From Escherichia coli (GTDB lineage Bacteria > Pseudomonadota > Gammaproteobacteria > Enterobacterales > Enterobacteriaceae), in the NCBI RefSeq assembly GCF_016026235.1, contig NZ_CP065613.1: 64,000 bases of DNA; one strand, given 5' to 3'. This document shows positions 2,728 through 62,913 of the stretch, piece by piece. Below the pieces are notes generated by a model that worked only from the letters and a program-made list of their open reading frames with translations, was not told where the DNA came from and did no database searches. How positions within the stretch are numbered: the stretch's first letter is position 1; each line of letters begins with the position of its first letter. Made by a program: the position numbers and the translations under genes.

Positions 2728-3003
2728 TTTCAGAAATTTAATAATGCCCGGTACTCATGTTTTCGGGTTTATGGTTTCTAATGAAATATATTGAATTATC
2801 ATAGGATTAGGCCGGATTAAGCGTTTACGACGAATCCGGCAAGAAGCAATAAGTACATGGTTAGTTTATATTTGCAGTCCGGTTTGCTTTGCATACCGGA
2901 TTTTCTTTTTCTTACCATCCTGAAGTTTTTTCATCTTCCCTGATTTTTCCTCACCATCATTGGTCATTTTTCGGTTGACGCCCTTCGGCTTTTCCTTCAT
3001 CTT

Positions 3004-3040
3004 TACATCTGGACGTCTAAACGGATAGATGTGCACAACA
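3004..3040 (+). promoter_or_regulatory. Candidate MetJ operator (met boxes) upstream of metF
   Basis: Sequence acatctggacgtctaaacggatagatgtg contains AGACGTCT-like tandem 8-mers about 40-70 bp upstream of the metF start. Confidence 0.45.
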
Positions 3041-3072
3041 CAACATATAACTACAAGCGATTGATGAGGTAA

Positions 3073-3966
<894 letters not shown>

Positions 3967-6483: not shown

Positions 6484-6526
6484 CTTCAGCGACTGCCTTT
6501 CAGGCAGTCGCTGAAGTTTCTTTACC
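6484..6526 (+). terminator. Rho-independent terminator after katG
   Basis: Perfect inverted repeat cagcgactgcc / ggcagtcgctg with a 4-nt loop followed by a T-rich run. Confidence 0.6.
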
Positions 6527-8348: not shown

Positions 8349-8391
8349 TTTTGCGTTCAAACTCCCGGACAAGCCGGGAGTTTGGAGTAGG

Positions 8392-24769: not shown

Positions 24770-25774
24770 ATGTTGAATACGCTGATTGTGGGTGCCAGCG
24801 GCTACGCTGGCGCAGAGCTAGTGACCTATGTAAATCGCCATCCGCATATGAACATAACCGCTTTGACTGTTTCAGCGCAAAGCAATGATGCGGGAAAGTT
24901 AATCTCCGATTTGCATCCGCAGCTAAAAGGCATCGTTGAGCTGCCGTTGCAGCCGATGTCGGATATCAGCGAGTTTAGCCCAGGGGTGGACGTAGTGTTT
25001 CTCGCCACCGCCCATGAAGTTAGCCACGATTTAGCGCCGCAGTTTCTTGAAGCGGGCTGCGTGGTGTTCGACCTTTCCGGCGCGTTTCGTGTTAACGACG
25101 CCACCTTCTATGAAAAATATTACGGCTTTACCCATCAATACCCGGAACTGCTGGAACAGGCAGCCTACGGTCTGGCGGAGTGGTGCGGTAATAAATTAAA
25201 AGAAGCGAATTTGATTGCGGTGCCAGGCTGTTATCCGACGGCGGCACAGCTGGCGCTGAAACCGTTGATTGATGCCGATCTTCTTGACCTCAATCAGTGG
25301 CCGGTGATCAACGCCACCAGCGGCGTGAGCGGTGCAGGACGTAAGGCAGCGATTTCAAATAGTTTTTGTGAAGTTAGCCTGCAACCGTATGGCGTCTTTA
25401 CTCATCGCCATCAACCAGAGATCGCCACACACCTCGGTGCTGACGTTATCTTCACCCCACATCTGGGCAATTTCCCGCGCGGCATTCTCGAAACCATTAC
25501 CTGCCGCCTGAAATCGGGTGTGACCCAGGCGCAAGTCGCGCAAGTGTTACAGCAGGCGTATGCCCATAAACCGCTGGTGCGGCTGTATGACAAAGGCGTT
25601 CCGGCGCTGAAAAATGTCGTTGGGCTGCCATTTTTCGATATCGGGTTTGCCGTTCAGGGCGAGCATCTGATTATTGTGGCGACCGAAGACAACTTACTGA
25701 AAGGCGCGGCGGCACAAGCGGTACAGTGCGCCAATATTCGTTTCGGCTATGCGGAAACGCAGTCTCTTATTTAA
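24770..25774 (+). CDS. argC: N-acetyl-gamma-glutamyl-phosphate reductase
   Basis: 334 aa ORF, same length as K-12 ArgC. Confidence 0.95.
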
Positions 25775-28258: not shown

Positions 28259-29176
28259 ATGAATATTCGTGATCTTGAGTACCTGGTGGCATTGGCTGAA
28301 CACCGCCATTTTCGGCGTGCGGCAGATTCCTGCCACGTTAGCCAGCCGACGCTTAGCGGGCAAATTCGTAAGCTGGAAGATGAGCTGGGCGTGATGTTGC
28401 TGGAGCGGACCAGCCGTAAAGTGTTGTTCACCCAGGCGGGAATGCTGCTGGTGGATCAGGCGCGTACCGTGCTGCGTGAGGTGAAAGTCCTTAAAGAGAT
28501 GGCAAGCCAGCAGGGCGAGACGATGTCCGGACCGCTGCATATTGGTTTGATTCCCACGGTTGGACCGTACCTGCTACCGCATATTATCCCGATGCTGCAC
28601 CAGACCTTTCCAAAGCTGGAAATGTATCTGCATGAAGCACAGACCCACCAGTTACTGGCGCAACTGGACAGCGGCAAACTCGATTGCGTGATCCTCGCGC
28701 TGGTGAAAGAGAGCGAAGCATTCATTGAAGTGCCGTTGTTTGATGAGCCAATGTTGCTGGCTATCTATGAAGACCACCCGTGGGCGAACCGCGAATGCGT
28801 ACCGATGGCCGATCTGGCTGGGGAAAAACTGCTGATGCTGGAAGATGGTCACTGTTTGCGCGATCAGGCAATGGGTTTCTGTTTTGAAGCCGGGGCGGAT
28901 GAAGATACACACTTCCGCGCGACCAGCCTGGAAACTCTGCGCAACATGGTGGCGGCAGGTAGCGGGATCACTTTACTGCCTGCGCTGGCTGTGCCGCCGG
29001 AGCGCAAACGCGATGGGGTTGTTTATCTGCCGTGCATTAAGCCGGAACCACGCCGCACTATTGGCCTGGTTTATCGTCCTGGCTCACCGCTGCGCAGCCG
29101 CTATGAGCAGCTGGCAGAGGCCATCCGCGCAAGAATGGATGGCCATTTCGATAAAGTGTTAAAACAGGCGGTTTAA
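28259..29176 (+). CDS. oxyR: LysR-family hydrogen peroxide-responsive regulator
   Basis: ORF 28229..29176, trimmed to the ATG giving [10 protein letters not shown] and the 305 aa K-12 length. Confidence 0.95.
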
Positions 29177-30559
29177 ACCGTTTAACGCAGCTACCCGATA
29201 GGCTTCCGCCATCGTCGGGTAGTTAAAGGTGGTGTTGACGAAGTACTCAATAGTGTTGCCGCCACCTTTCTGTTCCATAATCGCCTGACCGATATGAATA
29301 ATCTCGGCAGCGCGCTCGCCAAAGCAGTGAATGCCCAGAATCTCTTTTGTTTCCCGATGGAACAAAATTTTCAGCGTGCCCACGTTCATGCCGACGATTT
29401 GTGCACGTGCCAGATGTTTGAACTGGGCGCGGCCCACTTCATATGGCACTTTCATCGCGGTCAGCTGCTGTTCGGTTTTGCCCACAGAGCTGATTTCCGG
29501 GATGGTGTAAATGCCTGTAGGGATATCTTCAATCAGATGCGCGGTGGCTTCGCCTTTTACCAGCGCCTGCGCGGCAATGCGCCCCTGGTCATAGGCCGCT
29601 GATGCCAGGCTCGGATAACCAATCACGTCGCCCACCGCGTAAACGTGCGGCTGTGCGGTCTGATACATGCTGTTGACCTTCAGCTGTCCGCGACTGTCAG
29701 TTTCCAGCCCAATGTTCTGTAACGCCAGCGAATCGGTATTACCGGTACGACCGTTGGCATAGAGCAGGCAGTCAGCTTTCAGTTTTTTACCCGACTTCAG
29801 ATGCATGATCACACCGTCGTCACAGCCTTCGATCTTCTCGTACTCTTCGTTGTGACGAATCACTACGCCACTGTTCCAGAAGTGATAGGAGAGAGAATCT
29901 GACATCTCTTGATCGAGAAATGCCAGCAGGCGATCGCGGGTGTTGATCAGATCCACTTTTACATCCATACCGCGGAAGATCGACGCATATTCACAGCCGA
30001 TCACTCCAGCACCATAGATAAGTACATGGCGCGGTTCGTGGTGCATGCTGAGAATTGAGTCGCTGTCGTAAATGCGTGGATGGGTGAAATCAACATCTGT
30101 TGGATGATATGGACGAGAGCCGCAGGCAATAACAAATTTTTCAGCGGTTAGTGTTTCAACGCTGCCGTCCGGGCAATCCAGCGCCAACGTATGCTCGTCA
30201 ACAAAGCGAGCGTTCCCCTGCAATATTTCACAGTGATTACGTTCGTAAAATCCCTGACGCATGCGCGTTTGTTGATTAATCACGTTATCGGCATGGTTAA
30301 GGATATCGGCAAAAGAAGAGCGGAGCAGTCGGGAATGGTCGCTGTATAGTGGGTTTTGATTGAATTCTATAATGCGGCTGACGGCGTGACGGAGAGCTTT
30401 CGACGGGATGGTGCCCCAGTGGGTGCAACCGCCGCCAACATTTTGATAACGCTCGATAACTGCGACGCGCGCACCTTGCTTAACTAGGCCCATTGCAGCG
30501 CCTTCGCCGCCGGGGCCGGAACCTATTACTATGGCATCGTAATCGTAGGAATGTGGCAT
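29159..30559 (-). CDS. sthA: Soluble pyridine nucleotide transhydrogenase
   Basis: 466 aa ORF with FAD-binding GSGPGG motif; convergent with oxyR and overlapping its 3' end. Confidence 0.95.
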
Positions 30560-30888
30560 GGTAGGGCTTACCTGTTCTTATACATAAAAGCAACAGAATG
30601 GTAACATTTTATCGCGGGTAAGCCAATTGATCCCCGTCATTAATCTGGCTATAGCGTGAGCGGCCTTTGCTTTGTCTGCCTCCTTCTTAACCCATTTATT
30701 CACTATTAATCGCTTTTTATTATGGCTGATAGTTTTATCTTGCCGAAGCGTGCTTTTTTGTTATTGTCTTTATGAAATCTTCTTATAAAACAAACATATA
30801 AATATTTTATATTGATGGGTTATTTGTATTTATACCATCAATAAAATCCGTTAATTAGCCTGTTTATAAGTGAATAAAGGAATAGCCG

Positions 30889-32055
30889 ATGATCGAACAC
30901 TATATTCGAGGGTTTGAGGAAGAACTGCGTGAGATCCGCCATCAGATCCACGAAAACCCGGAGCTGGGATTACAAGAATTTAAAACCAGTGCTTTGGTTG
31001 CGGAAAAGCTGCGTCAGTGGGGCTATGAAGTAGAGCAAGGACTGGCGACGACGGGGATAGTGGCCACGTTAAAAGTGGGCGACGGAGAGAAAAGTATTGG
31101 CCTGCGGGCGGATATGGATGCGCTGCCGATTTATGAAAATAGTGGCAAGCCCTGGGCCAGTAAACATCCTGGTTTAATGCACGCCTGCGGGCATGACGGG
31201 CATACCACCATACTGCTGGGGGCCGCGCGTTATTTTGCCGAAACCCGCCGTTTTAACGGCACGTTACGTCTTATCTTCCAGCCTGCGGAAGAGATGATTA
31301 ATGGCGGTGAGATCATGGTTAAAGAGGGGCTTTTTGATCATTTCCCCTGCGATGTCATTTTCGGCATGCATAACATGCCCGGTCTGCCGGTGGGTAAGTT
31401 TTATTTCCAGCCAGGGGCACTGATGGCGTCAATGGATCAGTTCCATATTACAGTTCGTGGTTGTGGCGGACACGGTGCGATCCCGCACAAAGCCATCGAT
31501 CCGGTGCTAGTTGCCGCACATATCACCACCGCATTACAAAGCATTGTGTCACGCAATGTCGATCCGCTGGAAGCGGCGGTAATTACCGTCGGCAGCATTG
31601 TTGCGGGTGAGGCGGCTAACGTCATTCCTGACAGTGCTGAGATGAAAATCAGCGTCCGCTCTCTTAGCCGCGATACCCGACAACTTCTTCTGACCCGTAT
31701 TCCTGCTCTGGCACAAGCCCAGGCTGCCAGCTTTGGCGCTACGGCTGAGGTTACGCATGTTAACGGTACACCAGTATTAGTAAATGACGAGGAGATGGCG
31801 CGCTTCGCCTGGCAGGTGGCGTGTAAAACGTTTGGTGAAGATCGGGCCGAGTTTGGCATCAAGCCTCTGATGGGCAGTGAAGATTTCTCTTTCATGCTGG
31901 AAGCCCAACCCAAAGGCGGTTTCCTGTTATTCGGTAATGGCGATGTCGGGGAAGGTTCCTGCATGGTGCATAACCCGGGTTACGACTTCAACGATGCAAG
32001 TCTGGTCCCGGCAAGCAGCTACTGGGGCGCACTGGTAGAAGCCTGGCTGCAATAA
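30889..32055 (+). CDS. M20D-family amidohydrolase (hippurate hydrolase / N-acyl-amino acid amidohydrolase-like)
   Basis: 388 aa ORF with aggaa RBS; HACGHDGH metal-binding motif and overall layout typical of M20D aminoacylases; no gene sits here in K-12 as I recall. Confidence 0.85.
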   Translation: MIEHYIRGFEEELREIRHQIHENPELGLQEFKTSALVAEKLRQWGYEVEQGLATTGIVATLKVGDGEKSIGLRADMDALPIYENSGKPWASKHPGLMHACGHDGHTTILLGAARYFAETRRFNGTLRLIFQPAEEMINGGEIMVKEGLFDHFPCDVIFGMHNMPGLPVGKFYFQPGALMASMDQFHITVRGCGGHGAIPHKAIDPVLVAAHITTALQSIVSRNVDPLEAAVITVGSIVAGEAANVIPDSAEMKISVRSLSRDTRQLLLTRIPALAQAQAASFGATAEVTHVNGTPVLVNDEEMARFAWQVACKTFGEDRAEFGIKPLMGSEDFSFMLEAQPKGGFLLFGNGDVGEGSCMVHNPGYDFNDASLVPASSYWGALVEAWLQ

Positions 32056-32097
32056 ATAAAACAACACACAACAACACTTTTTGGCAAGGAACATGGA

Positions 32098-33414
32098 ATG
32101 ACGGCGATCGTAAATGAAACCGTGAGTGTGAAGAAAAAGCCCAGCGGCAGGCGGGTGATTTTTGCCTCGGCGTTTGGCAATGCGCTCGAATTTTTTGATT
32201 TTGGCGTTTACAACTTTTTTGTGGTCTATATCAGTACACTTTTCTTCCCACCCAGCGCTGATCACAATGTCGCGCTGTTACTGGCATTTGCAACGTTTGG
32301 CGTGAGTTTTTTTATGCGCCCGCTTGGTGGAATTATCGTCGGGGCCTGGGCCGATCGTTTCGGACGCAAACCCGCGATGGTGTTCACTATTGCCCTGATG
32401 AGCCTCGGCACGTTGATGATTGGCATTGCGCCGACGTATGCGACGGCGGGCTATTGGGGAACGGCAACTCTGGTACTTGCTCGTTTGATTCAGGGTGTTG
32501 CAGCAGGCGGTGAAGTTGGGGCTTCAATGTCGCTACTGGTGGAGTCAGCTCCGGCAAATCGTCGCGGTTTTTACAGCAGTTGGTCACTGGCGACTCAAGG
32601 CCTGGCAACAACTTTTGGAGGTGTTGTCGCTTTAGGTTTAAGTGCATGGCTGCCCTTTGCGACCGGTTCAGAAACCGTCATGGCTGAATGGGGCTGGCGT
32701 GTGCCGTTTTTTATTGGCGTGTTATTAGCGCCTGTCGGCTGTTGGTTGCGTTTGAGTCTGGAAAATGATGTTCCTGAGCCAGCACATAATAAGAAGGCCG
32801 CAGCCAGCGAAAGCGCCTTCTCCTTACTTATGCAACATAAAGCGACTATCGCTAACGGTATCTTGCTCGCTATTGGTAGCACGGTCGCAACCTATATCTC
32901 CCTCTTTTATTACGGTACATGGGCGGCGAAGTATTTAGGAATGAACCAAAACTATTCTCATGCAGCGATGTTACTGGCGGGCGTTATTACGTTTGTGGGT
33001 GCGCTGCTGGTGGGGATGTTGTGCGATTCGGTCGGGCGTAAAAAGCTGATTTTAATCTCCCGTGTGATGGTGCTGATCTGTAGCTGGCCGTCATTCTGGC
33101 TGTTGGTGAATTACCCAAGCCCTGGCATGTTGCTGACGGTGGTTTTCGTGATGGTCAGCTTTACCACGCTTGGCGGTGTGCCAGTGATGTTGTTGATCTC
33201 TGAACTGTTGCCGAAACGGATTCGGGCATTGGGTTTTGCGCTGGTTTATAGCATTGGTGTGGCAATCTTTGGCGGTTTTGCTCAATATTTCGCTACGCAA
33301 TCCATCGTGTTGCTGGATAGTTTGACGGCTCCGGCGTGGTATCTGGGTGGAGGCACGTTGCTGTCGATGTTGGCGTTGTTGTACGTAAAAGAACCGGCCA
33401 AAGAATTGCAGTAA
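32098..33414 (+). CDS. MFS transporter, metabolite:H+ symporter (MHS) family
   Basis: 438 aa hydrophobic ORF with the MHS signature [13 protein letters not shown] and ADRFGRK loop motif; 42 bp downstream of the amidohydrolase, same strand. Confidence 0.85.
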
Positions 33415-34527: not shown

Positions 34528-34566
34528 TCGGTATCATGCCGGATGCTGGCGCATCCGGCATGGGTT

Positions 34567-49337: not shown

Positions 49338-49365
49338 AAAAGGGCATCATTTGATGCCCTTTTTG
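49338..49365 (+). terminator. Rho-independent terminator after tufB
   Basis: agggcatca-tt-tgatgccct hairpin followed by ttttt. Confidence 0.6.
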
Positions 49366-53143: not shown

Positions 53144-53176
53144 GGCTGGTGACTTTTTAGTCACCAGCCTTTTTGC
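53144..53176 (+). terminator. rplL-rpoB intergenic attenuator (partial terminator)
   Basis: ggctggtgac-ttttta-gtcaccagcc hairpin followed by tttttg, about 250 nt upstream of rpoB. Confidence 0.65.
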
Positions 53177-62504: not shown

Positions 62505-62913
62505 CAAAACCCACCTTAAGGTGGGTTTCGCCAGAGAATTATCTCTGGTATTCAGAACGCCATTACCGGACTTTGCCTTGACCTTGCGATAATCGCAGGT
62601 TGCGGGATGTCTGAATTTCTTCAGTCTGCTGCATCCTGGAAGATGAGAACATGTGTTCTTATTTTCGTCTCTATCATAGTTGAGTATTTACTCTCTTACA
62701 ATCAGATCTCTTTCATTGCTCAACAGGCGATGGCTTCAGACTTTGCATTACGGAATTTTTAAGAAAGGCAGGGCGAAACGAGGAAGAAGCTTTTCGCCCT
62801 GGACAACATTCCTGCTGACGGCACTACCATAAAAAAACAGAACGCTTTCAACAACCTTGCGTTTTTCATCTTCCGTAGCGGCTCGGAATAAATTTACGTT
62901 CTTACATTCCGTC

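What the first reader, a model, noticed from the sequence alone, without database searches (positions are those of the whole stretch)
30810..30843. Perfect 9-bp inverted repeat in the AT-rich region upstream of the amidohydrolase gene
tattgatgg (30810..30818) and ccatcaata (30835..30843) form a perfect inverted repeat with a 16-bp AT-rich spacer, about 45-80 bp upstream of the amidohydrolase ATG. That placement and symmetry fit a dimeric regulator operator overlapping the promoter. No regulator is encoded in the cassette, so control would have to come from a trans-acting factor; the AT-rich context would also suit nucleoid-protein silencing.
Basis: seen in the sequence. Interest (0 to 1): 0.3.

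Follow-up and report, generated by a model that had tools for sequence, protein, structure and literature searches.

The report
Chance-level dyad in conserved promoter block
The 9-bp inverted repeat is really there, upstream of an accessory E. coli amidohydrolase–transporter operon. It is no better than chance for such AT-rich DNA, its ninth pair is broken in most strains, and nothing singles it out from the conserved promoter region around it.

Summary
The repeat exists exactly as described: TATTGATGG at 30810-30818 and CCATCAATA at 30835-30843, with a 16-bp spacer, 46-79 bp before the ATG at 30889.

The window is E. coli chromosome. The two genes (an M20 aminoacylase and an MHS-family MFS symporter) lie between sthA and fabR in about 1505 of 5426 complete E. 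coli genomes and in E. albertii. No regulator is encoded with them.

- **Chance:** in shuffles of this 28%-GC region a perfect 9-bp dyad appears with P = 0.06-0.10, and an 8-bp one with P = 0.21-0.28.
- **Polymorphism:** position 30818 is G in about 640 genomes and A in about 810-860. A is also the base in E. albertii, O157:H7 and Nissle 1917. There is no compensating change, so most carriers have only 8+8 bp.
- **Conservation:** the whole 92 bp before the ATG is strongly conserved, with 1 difference from E. albertii against 24-37% at four-fold sites. Spacer and flanks are as conserved as the arms.
- **No other support:** I found no known operator consensus, no Rfam family, no terminator and no second copy. 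The same dyad turns up by chance in at least 120 unrelated AT-rich metagenome contigs.

Most likely it is an incidental dyad inside a functional promoter/5'-UTR block. An operator is not excluded (about 0.2). Interest is low.

The parts
30810..30818 (.). Left arm TATTGATGG. Its last base (30818) is a common G/A polymorphism.
30819..30834 (.). 16-bp AT-rich spacer. It is as conserved as the arms; the only variant seen is T>C at 30833 in O157:H7.
30835..30843 (.). Right arm CCATCAATA. It is invariant in the 9 aligned sequences, and the 36-mer 30834-30869 is exact in 1465 of about 1506 carrier genomes.
30797..30888 (+). Conserved promoter-proximal / 5'-UTR block. It shows 1 difference in 92 bp from E. 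albertii, although four-fold sites in the flanking genes differ by 24-37%.
30679..30888 (.). Upstream DNA that is absent from K-12, 28% GC and single-copy per genome.
30842..30847 (+). Candidate -10 hexamer TAAAAT, overlapping the end of the right arm. This is an inference only: it scores within the noise of shuffled sequence.
30877..30881 (+). Shine-Dalgarno-like AAGGA, 7 nt before the ATG.
   Evidence: read from the sequence
30889..32055 (+). M20 (M20D-type) aminoacylase / amidohydrolase, 388 aa.
32098..33414 (+). MFS metabolite:H+ symporter (MHS family), 438 aa. Its last 35 bp are also present in K-12.
30719..30746 (-). Promoter-like site on the minus strand, TCGGCA-16-CATAAT. It matches a mapped sthA start site 152 nt upstream of the sthA ATG in EDL933. 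It is not part of the repeat.
   Evidence: PMC10469882 Table S5

Best explanation
The repeat is a real but incidental dyad. It lies in the low-complexity, AT-rich promoter and 5'-UTR block of a two-gene operon: an M20 aminoacylase followed by an MHS-family symporter. This operon sits between sthA and fabR in about 28% of complete E. coli genomes and in E. albertii.

Selection acts on the roughly 92-bp block as a whole. That means RNA polymerase contacts, possibly an upstream AT-rich (UP-like) tract, the ribosome-binding region, and perhaps nucleoid-protein binding. It does not act on the symmetry of the two arms.

Shown here:
- the location of the repeat;
- chance-level statistics;
- the uncompensated polymorphism;
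- conservation of the whole block.

Inferred: where the promoter lies, and that no symmetric protein reads the arms.
For: 1. **Chance probability.** It is 0.064-0.10 for 9 bp and 0.21-0.28 for 8 bp in shuffles of this region.
2. **Uncompensated polymorphism.** 30818 is G in about 640 genomes and A in about 810-860. A is found in E. albertii, O157:H7, Nissle 1917 and ATCC 11775, and 30835 stays C.
3. **Conservation is not specific to the arms.** 30797-30888 has 1 difference in 92 bp from E. albertii. That matches the sthA-proximal 92 bp, which also has 1 difference. Four-fold sites differ by 24% (aminoacylase), 37% (MFS) and 32% (sthA).
4. **No recognised element.** There is no Rfam family, no terminator, no second copy in any E. 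coli genome and no fit to common E. coli operator consensus sequences (consensus sequences taken from memory).
5. **The same dyad arises by chance elsewhere.** The 77 matches I could read lie on contigs of median GC 0.34 and have unrelated spacers apart from three duplicated ones. Arm extension falls off roughly as chance predicts (52:16:4:3:1:1).
Against: - The 8+8-bp core is invariant across E. coli and E. albertii.
- It sits where operators often sit, close to or over the probable core promoter.
- The operon has no strong sigma-70 consensus promoter. That would fit a need for an activator.
- Distant versions of the module carry their own LysR regulator, so some regulator has presumably taken over in Escherichia.
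- Widely spaced palindromic operators do exist, for example NikR GTATGA-N16-TCATAC and the BirA bio operator (from my own knowledge).
Confidence: 0.55

Rival explanations
1. The dyad is an operator for a regulator encoded elsewhere in the genome. That regulator would have widely spaced DNA-binding domains or act as a tetramer. It would repress or activate the operon by binding across the -35 to -10 interval.
For: - There is a perfect 8-9-bp dyad inside a block under purifying selection.
- No regulator is encoded in the unit, whereas 5 of 9 distant aminoacylase-MHS modules carry a divergent LysR regulator.
- The promoter consensus is weak.
- The transporter gene ECs4893 rises 2.09-fold at the stationary-phase transition in O157:H7 Sakai (PMC2241611), so expression is regulated in some way.
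Against: - The statistics are at chance level.
- The ninth pair is lost without compensation in most strains.
- The spacer is as conserved as the arms.
- The half-site centres are 25-26 bp apart, on nearly opposite faces of the helix.
- There is no match to a known consensus and no related site in the 64-kb window, apart from two half-site matches at 25132 and 37226 that I did not examine further.
- Metagenome occurrences look random.
Confidence: 0.2
2. The region is mainly a binding platform for nucleoid-associated proteins such as H-NS, Fis or IHF. These would silence or shape the promoter, and the dyad would be irrelevant to their binding.
For: - The upstream region is 28% GC against 52% for the window.
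- TCAATAAAAT at 30838 is 2 mismatches from the H-NS high-affinity motif TCGATAAATT (motif from memory).
- IS1, which tends to insert in AT-rich DNA (from my own knowledge), has inserted exactly here in strain ZJ3920.
Against: - The genes themselves have ordinary GC (51-53%).
- They diverge from E. albertii about as much as the core gene sthA, so this is not typical recently acquired, silenced DNA.
- The IHF consensus does not fit at either arm (the base before ATCAA is C, read from the sequence). The nearest match in the region, 1 mismatch at 30797, lies outside the arms.
- No binding data were available.
Confidence: 0.15
3. The arms pair in the mRNA. If transcription starts upstream of 30810, a 9-bp stem with a 16-nt loop in the 5'-UTR would modulate stability or translation.
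For: - The predicted hairpin has -12.6 kcal/mol and z = -2.9 against shuffles.
- The best-scoring plus-strand promoter-like site (TTGCCG-16-TATTGT, -10 at 30762-30767) would put the start near 30774, upstream of the repeat.
Against: - That promoter score (10.8) equals the mean of shuffled sequence (10.4).
- The common G>A change at 30818 creates an A.C mismatch with no compensating change.
- There is no Rfam family.
- The hairpin does not touch the Shine-Dalgarno sequence.
- No start site is available for this gene, because the sheet holding it in the EDL933 dataset was cut off as stored.
Confidence: 0.07

Closest known systems
Widely spaced palindromic operators (E. coli NikR GTATGA-N16-TCATAC; the BirA bio operator)
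   Same: Two short inverted half-sites are separated by about 16 bp and placed over a promoter.
   Different: The half-site sequences do not match. No cognate regulator is known or encoded nearby. The symmetry is not maintained across strains, and binding is untested. The comparison rests on my own knowledge of those operators.
LysR-regulated aminoacylase plus MHS-transporter modules in Burkholderia, Paraburkholderia and other genera (loci L046, L006, L015, L027, L020)
   Same: The same gene pair occurs in the same order: aminoacylase at 50-57% identity and transporter at 37-45% identity.
   Different: Those modules have a divergent LysR regulator and GC-rich intergenic regions with TTG...CAA-type dyads. 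Escherichia has sthA in that position, an unrelated AT-rich upstream region and no regulator.
AT-rich promoters silenced by H-NS on horizontally acquired DNA
   Same: The upstream region is very AT-rich and belongs to an accessory unit.
   Different: The coding GC is normal, and divergence from E. albertii resembles that of core genes. K-12 keeps the last 35 bp of the transporter gene, which points to loss in K-12 rather than recent gain.
M20D aminoacylases (B. subtilis YxeP, plant ILL2 IAA-amino acid hydrolase, N-acyl-glutamine aminoacylase)
   Same: The downstream enzyme matches these over its full length (E = 1e-64 to 1e-71) and matches TIGR01891.
   Different: The substrate of the E. coli enzyme is unknown. 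This comparison concerns the gene, not the repeat.

Membership tests
Palindromic operator of a dimeric transcription factor | Dyad symmetry of the site | tested here: met
   A perfect 9+9 bp dyad in the window, and 8+8 bp in most strains.
Palindromic operator of a dimeric transcription factor | Symmetry better than chance for the local base composition | tested here: not met
   P = 0.064-0.10 for 9 bp and 0.21-0.28 for 8 bp in dinucleotide-preserving shuffles.
Palindromic operator of a dimeric transcription factor | Arms more conserved than spacer and flanks, or symmetric positions changing together | tested here: not met
   30818 is G/A polymorphic (about 640 against about 810-860 genomes) while 30835 stays fixed. 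The spacer and flanks are as invariant as the arms.
Palindromic operator of a dimeric transcription factor | Half-site spacing that puts both sites on one face of the helix (about 10-11 or 21 bp centre to centre) | tested here: not met
   The centres are 25 bp apart (9-bp arms) or 26 bp apart (8-bp arms), which is 2.4-2.5 turns. This is read from the coordinates. Exceptions such as NikR and BirA exist.
Palindromic operator of a dimeric transcription factor | A cognate regulator nearby, or a match to a known consensus | tested here: not met
   The unit holds only the two genes. The best matches to 19 consensus patterns are poor at the repeat (consensus sequences from memory).
Palindromic operator of a dimeric transcription factor | Recurrence of the motif at other promoters (a regulon) | tested here: inconclusive
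   Only the 64-kb window could be scanned. It holds two other half-site matches, at 25132 and 37226, which I did not examine further. Metagenome occurrences look random. A whole carrier genome was not scanned.
Palindromic operator of a dimeric transcription factor | Specific protein binding and an effect on transcription | not testable with these tools
   This needs EMSA or ChIP and reporter fusions.
H-NS-silenced acquired DNA | AT content well above the genome average | tested here: met
   30679-30888 is 28% GC against 52% for the window.
H-NS-silenced acquired DNA | Recently acquired genes of atypical composition | tested here: not met
   The genes are 51-53% GC. Four-fold divergence from E. 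albertii is 24-37%, against 32% for sthA. The unit sits at the same site in both species.
H-NS-silenced acquired DNA | H-NS occupancy and derepression in an hns mutant | not testable with these tools
   No binding data were found.
Structured RNA element or intrinsic terminator | A match to a curated RNA family | tested here: not met
   No Rfam match at E <= 1 in 30300-31200.
Structured RNA element or intrinsic terminator | Compensatory changes that keep the stem | tested here: not met
   The only common change in the stem (G>A at 30818) produces an A.C mismatch.
Structured RNA element or intrinsic terminator | A GC-rich stem followed by a T-run | tested here: not met
   No terminator-like site in 30300-31100.
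Dispersed repeat element (REP/ERIC/MITE-like) | Several copies per genome | tested here: not met
   One place per genome in both near and distant BLAST modes. The single extra place is explained by an IS1 split.

The most novel reading that the evidence does not exclude
The 8-N18-8 dyad TATTGATG/CATCAATA is the operator of an as yet unidentified, chromosomally encoded E. coli regulator. That regulator would have taken over control of an ancestral N-acyl-amino-acid utilisation operon after its own LysR-type regulator was lost.
Probability: 0.15. Interest if true: 0.3.

Novelty: not a real feature. Interest (0 to 1): 0.1.

Why it matters
It matters little as it stands. The repeat gives no reliable handle on how this accessory operon is controlled.

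The useful outcome is negative: a 9-bp perfect dyad in 28%-GC DNA should not be read as an operator without further evidence.

If the repeat did prove to be an operator, it would show how a catabolic module that lost its dedicated regulator became wired into the E. coli regulatory network. That would be of modest, local interest.

Tried and rejected
- **Footprinting across species.** The aminoacylase has no relative between 97% (E. albertii) and 63% identity (Silvimonas) among 100,044 species representatives. The large protein search returned only 99-100% E. coli variants. Comparison is therefore limited to Escherichia.
- **Mapped start site.** The EDL933 Cappable-seq tables (PMC10469882) are cut off as stored before this locus in the main sheet. 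No start site for the aminoacylase gene (EDL933_RS26195) could be read.
- **Sigma-70 scans.** The built-in scan found nothing on the plus strand. My own weight-matrix scan gave a best score of 10.8 against a shuffle mean of 10.4.
- **Sigma-54 and common operators.** I scanned for CRP, FNR, IHF, ArcA, Fur, Lrp, ArgR, NtrC, Nac, PurR, TyrR, OxyR, FabR, PdhR and NanR. No convincing match lies at the repeat. FNR-like TTGAT/ATCAA is present, but 20 bp apart instead of 4.
- **Relic of a LysR box.** The intergenic regions of the distant LysR-linked modules share nothing with the E. coli region.
- **Terminator, Rfam element, dispersed repeat.** All rejected.
- **Leader peptide.** A 9-codon ORF, MGYLYLYHQ* (30815-30844), spans the repeat. 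It has no Shine-Dalgarno sequence and no downstream terminator, and the G/A polymorphism changes its second codon. I rejected it as unsupported.
- **Literature.** Searches for sthA + fabR + amidohydrolase, for hippuricase + O157, and for old locus tags found only one microarray mention of ECs4893.

Full report
**Observation.** The window reads TATTGATGG at 30810-30818 and CCATCAATA at 30835-30843, which are exact reverse complements separated by 16 bp. The next outward pair (30809/30844) is A/A, so the arms stop at 9 bp. The aminoacylase ATG is at 30889, preceded by AAGGA at 30877-30881. This confirms the stated distance of about 45-80 bp.

**Context.** The window is E. coli chromosome. The gene order is argB, argH, oxyR, sthA (minus strand, 29159-30559), an M20 aminoacylase (30889-32055), an MHS-family MFS symporter (32098-33414), fabR, yijD, trmA and btuB.
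- The two middle genes are present in 1505 of 5426 complete E. coli genomes. These include O157:H7, ST131, Nissle 1917 and the type strain.
- E. albertii carries them at the same site.
- Against K-12, homology stops at 30678 and resumes at 33380. K-12 has 73 unrelated bp in between, yet it keeps the last 35 bp of the transporter reading frame.
- The repeat therefore lies in DNA that K-12 lacks, 130 bp inside the left junction.
- That upstream stretch (30679-30888) is 28% GC. The genes are 51-53% GC.

**Is the dyad more than chance?** It is not.
- Dinucleotide-preserving shuffles of the upstream stretch give at least one perfect dyad of 9 bp or more (spacer up to 20 or 30 bp) in 6.4-7.0% and 9.8-10.4% of trials.
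- For 8 bp the figures are 21% and 28%.
- Across the 64-kb window about 7 such dyads are expected by chance, and 24 are seen. I did not examine the others.
- At looser thresholds the same 450 bp contains 13 other inverted repeats.

**Is the symmetry maintained?** I aligned nine upstream regions: the window, E. albertii, O157:H7, ST131 and five other lineages.
- Position 30818, the innermost base of the left arm, is G or A, while its partner at 30835 is always C.
- Exact 36-mer counts give the G allele in 637-639 complete genomes and the A allele in 809-860.
- So about 57% of carriers, and E. albertii, have only an 8+8-bp dyad with an 18-bp gap.
- The right-arm 36-mer is exact in 1465 of about 1506 carriers.

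**Is the region functional?** It is, but as a block.
- Between the window and E. albertii, four-fold degenerate sites differ by 24% in the aminoacylase, 37% in the transporter and 32% in sthA.
- Yet 30797-30888 differs at one position in 92, and that position is 30818.
- The probability of one or fewer differences is 5e-10 at the aminoacylase four-fold rate. It is 0.006 at the rate of the rest of the intergenic region.
- The sthA-proximal 92 bp are just as conserved.
- Arms, spacer and the 45 bp down to the ATG are all equally invariant. The conservation therefore says "promoter and leader" rather than "palindrome".
- The similar divergence of these genes and of sthA, together with the transporter remnant in K-12, suggests the unit is ancestral to E. 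coli and E. albertii and was lost in many E. coli. This weakens the picture of foreign-DNA silencing.

**Where is the promoter?** This remains unresolved.
- The consensus scan finds nothing on the plus strand.
- A weight-matrix scan gives a best site (TTGCCG-16-TATTGT, -10 at 30762-30767) scoring 10.8, against a shuffle mean of 10.4.
- A candidate TAAAAT at 30842-30847 overlaps the end of the right arm. It would put the start near 30854.
- The conserved block would then span about -57 to +35, with an AT-rich UP-like tract (AAATATTTTAT) at its upstream edge. This is inference only.
- The EDL933 Cappable-seq tables were cut off as stored before this gene.
- They do list sthA start sites at 10, 32, 40 and 152 nt from the ATG. 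The 152-nt site maps to about 30711 and matches the minus-strand site TCGGCA-16-CATAAT at 30746-30719.

**Other readings tested.**
- There is no Rfam match, no terminator and only one copy per genome in near and distant BLAST modes.
- As RNA the arms would form a hairpin of -12.6 kcal/mol (z = -2.9). The common G>A change makes an A.C mismatch with no compensation.
- None of 19 consensus patterns recalled from memory fits at the repeat.
The 77 matches I could read lie on contigs of median GC 0.34.
- Their spacers are unrelated, apart from three duplicated ones. Arm lengths fall off roughly as chance predicts (52:16:4:3:1:1).

**The regulator question.**
- Nine distant loci (Burkholderia, Paraburkholderia, Pseudomonas and others) carry the same aminoacylase-transporter pair.
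- Five of them have a divergent LysR-type regulator immediately upstream.
- Their intergenic regions are unrelated to the E. coli one.
- The only expression datum I found is that ECs4893, the transporter in O157:H7 Sakai, rises 2.09-fold at the stationary-phase transition (PMC2241611).

**Verdict.**
- Its perfect form is one allele of a common polymorphism, and nothing distinguishes it from the conserved promoter block around it.
- I put 0.55 on an incidental dyad within a functional promoter/5'-UTR block.
- The rivals are an operator for an unlinked regulator (0.2), mainly a nucleoid-protein platform (0.15) and an RNA hairpin (0.07).
- The geometry (centres 25-26 bp apart) argues against a simple dimer. 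It does not exclude NikR- or BirA-like arrangements.
- Interest is low.

Noticed in passing
window 30719-30746 (minus strand); start site near 30711: EDL933 Cappable-seq lists an sthA start site 152 nt upstream of the ATG, besides sites at 10, 32 and 40 nt. K-12 is listed with 12 nt. The 152-nt site coincides with a promoter-like TCGGCA-16-CATAAT in DNA that K-12 lacks, so carrier strains seem to have an extra distal sthA promoter.
   Followed up: partly
L089 2661-3440 (strain ZJ3920), corresponding to window 30831-30839: An IS1 element is inserted inside the right arm with a 9-bp target duplication, TATACCATC. It separates the two arms by about 770 bp, which makes this strain a natural mutant for testing the repeat.
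   Followed up: partly
window 30679-33379 compared with L001 2911-2983: K-12 has 73 unrelated bp in place of the 2.7-kb unit but keeps the last 35 bp of the transporter ORF. Four-fold divergence from E. albertii is 24-37% for these genes, similar to sthA at 32%. The unit therefore looks ancestral and lost in about 72% of E. coli, rather than a recent island.
   Followed up: partly
L046, L006, L015, L027, L020 (about 2800-3860, minus strand): Five of nine distant aminoacylase plus MHS-transporter modules have a divergent LysR-type regulator directly upstream. The Escherichia version lacks it.
   Followed up: yes
window 30815-30844: A 9-codon ORF, ATG GGT TAT TTG TAT TTA TAC CAT CAA TAA (MGYLYLYHQ*), runs from the left arm to the right arm. 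It has no Shine-Dalgarno sequence, and the G/A polymorphism turns Gly2 into Ser. It is probably meaningless.
   Followed up: partly
window about 32236 (EDL933 position 5056730): The EDL933 dataset lists a start site 138 nt inside the annotated transporter gene, seen in several growth conditions.
   Followed up: no
window 32098-33414: The Sakai ortholog of the transporter (ECs4893) is listed as rising 2.09-fold at the stationary-phase transition in glucose minimal medium (PMC2241611).
   Followed up: partly
window 30679-30900: Two plasmid records in the E. coli collection also hold this upstream region, with the G allele. I did not check whether these are real chromosomal captures or assembly errors.
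   Followed up: no
window 6484-6516, 8358-8384, 34535-34562, 49338-49363, 53144-53169, 62507-62528: These are longer perfect inverted repeats with short loops. They make up much of the window's excess of dyads over chance (24 against about 7). The short loops suggest terminator-type or REP-type hairpins, but I did not examine any of them.
   Followed up: no
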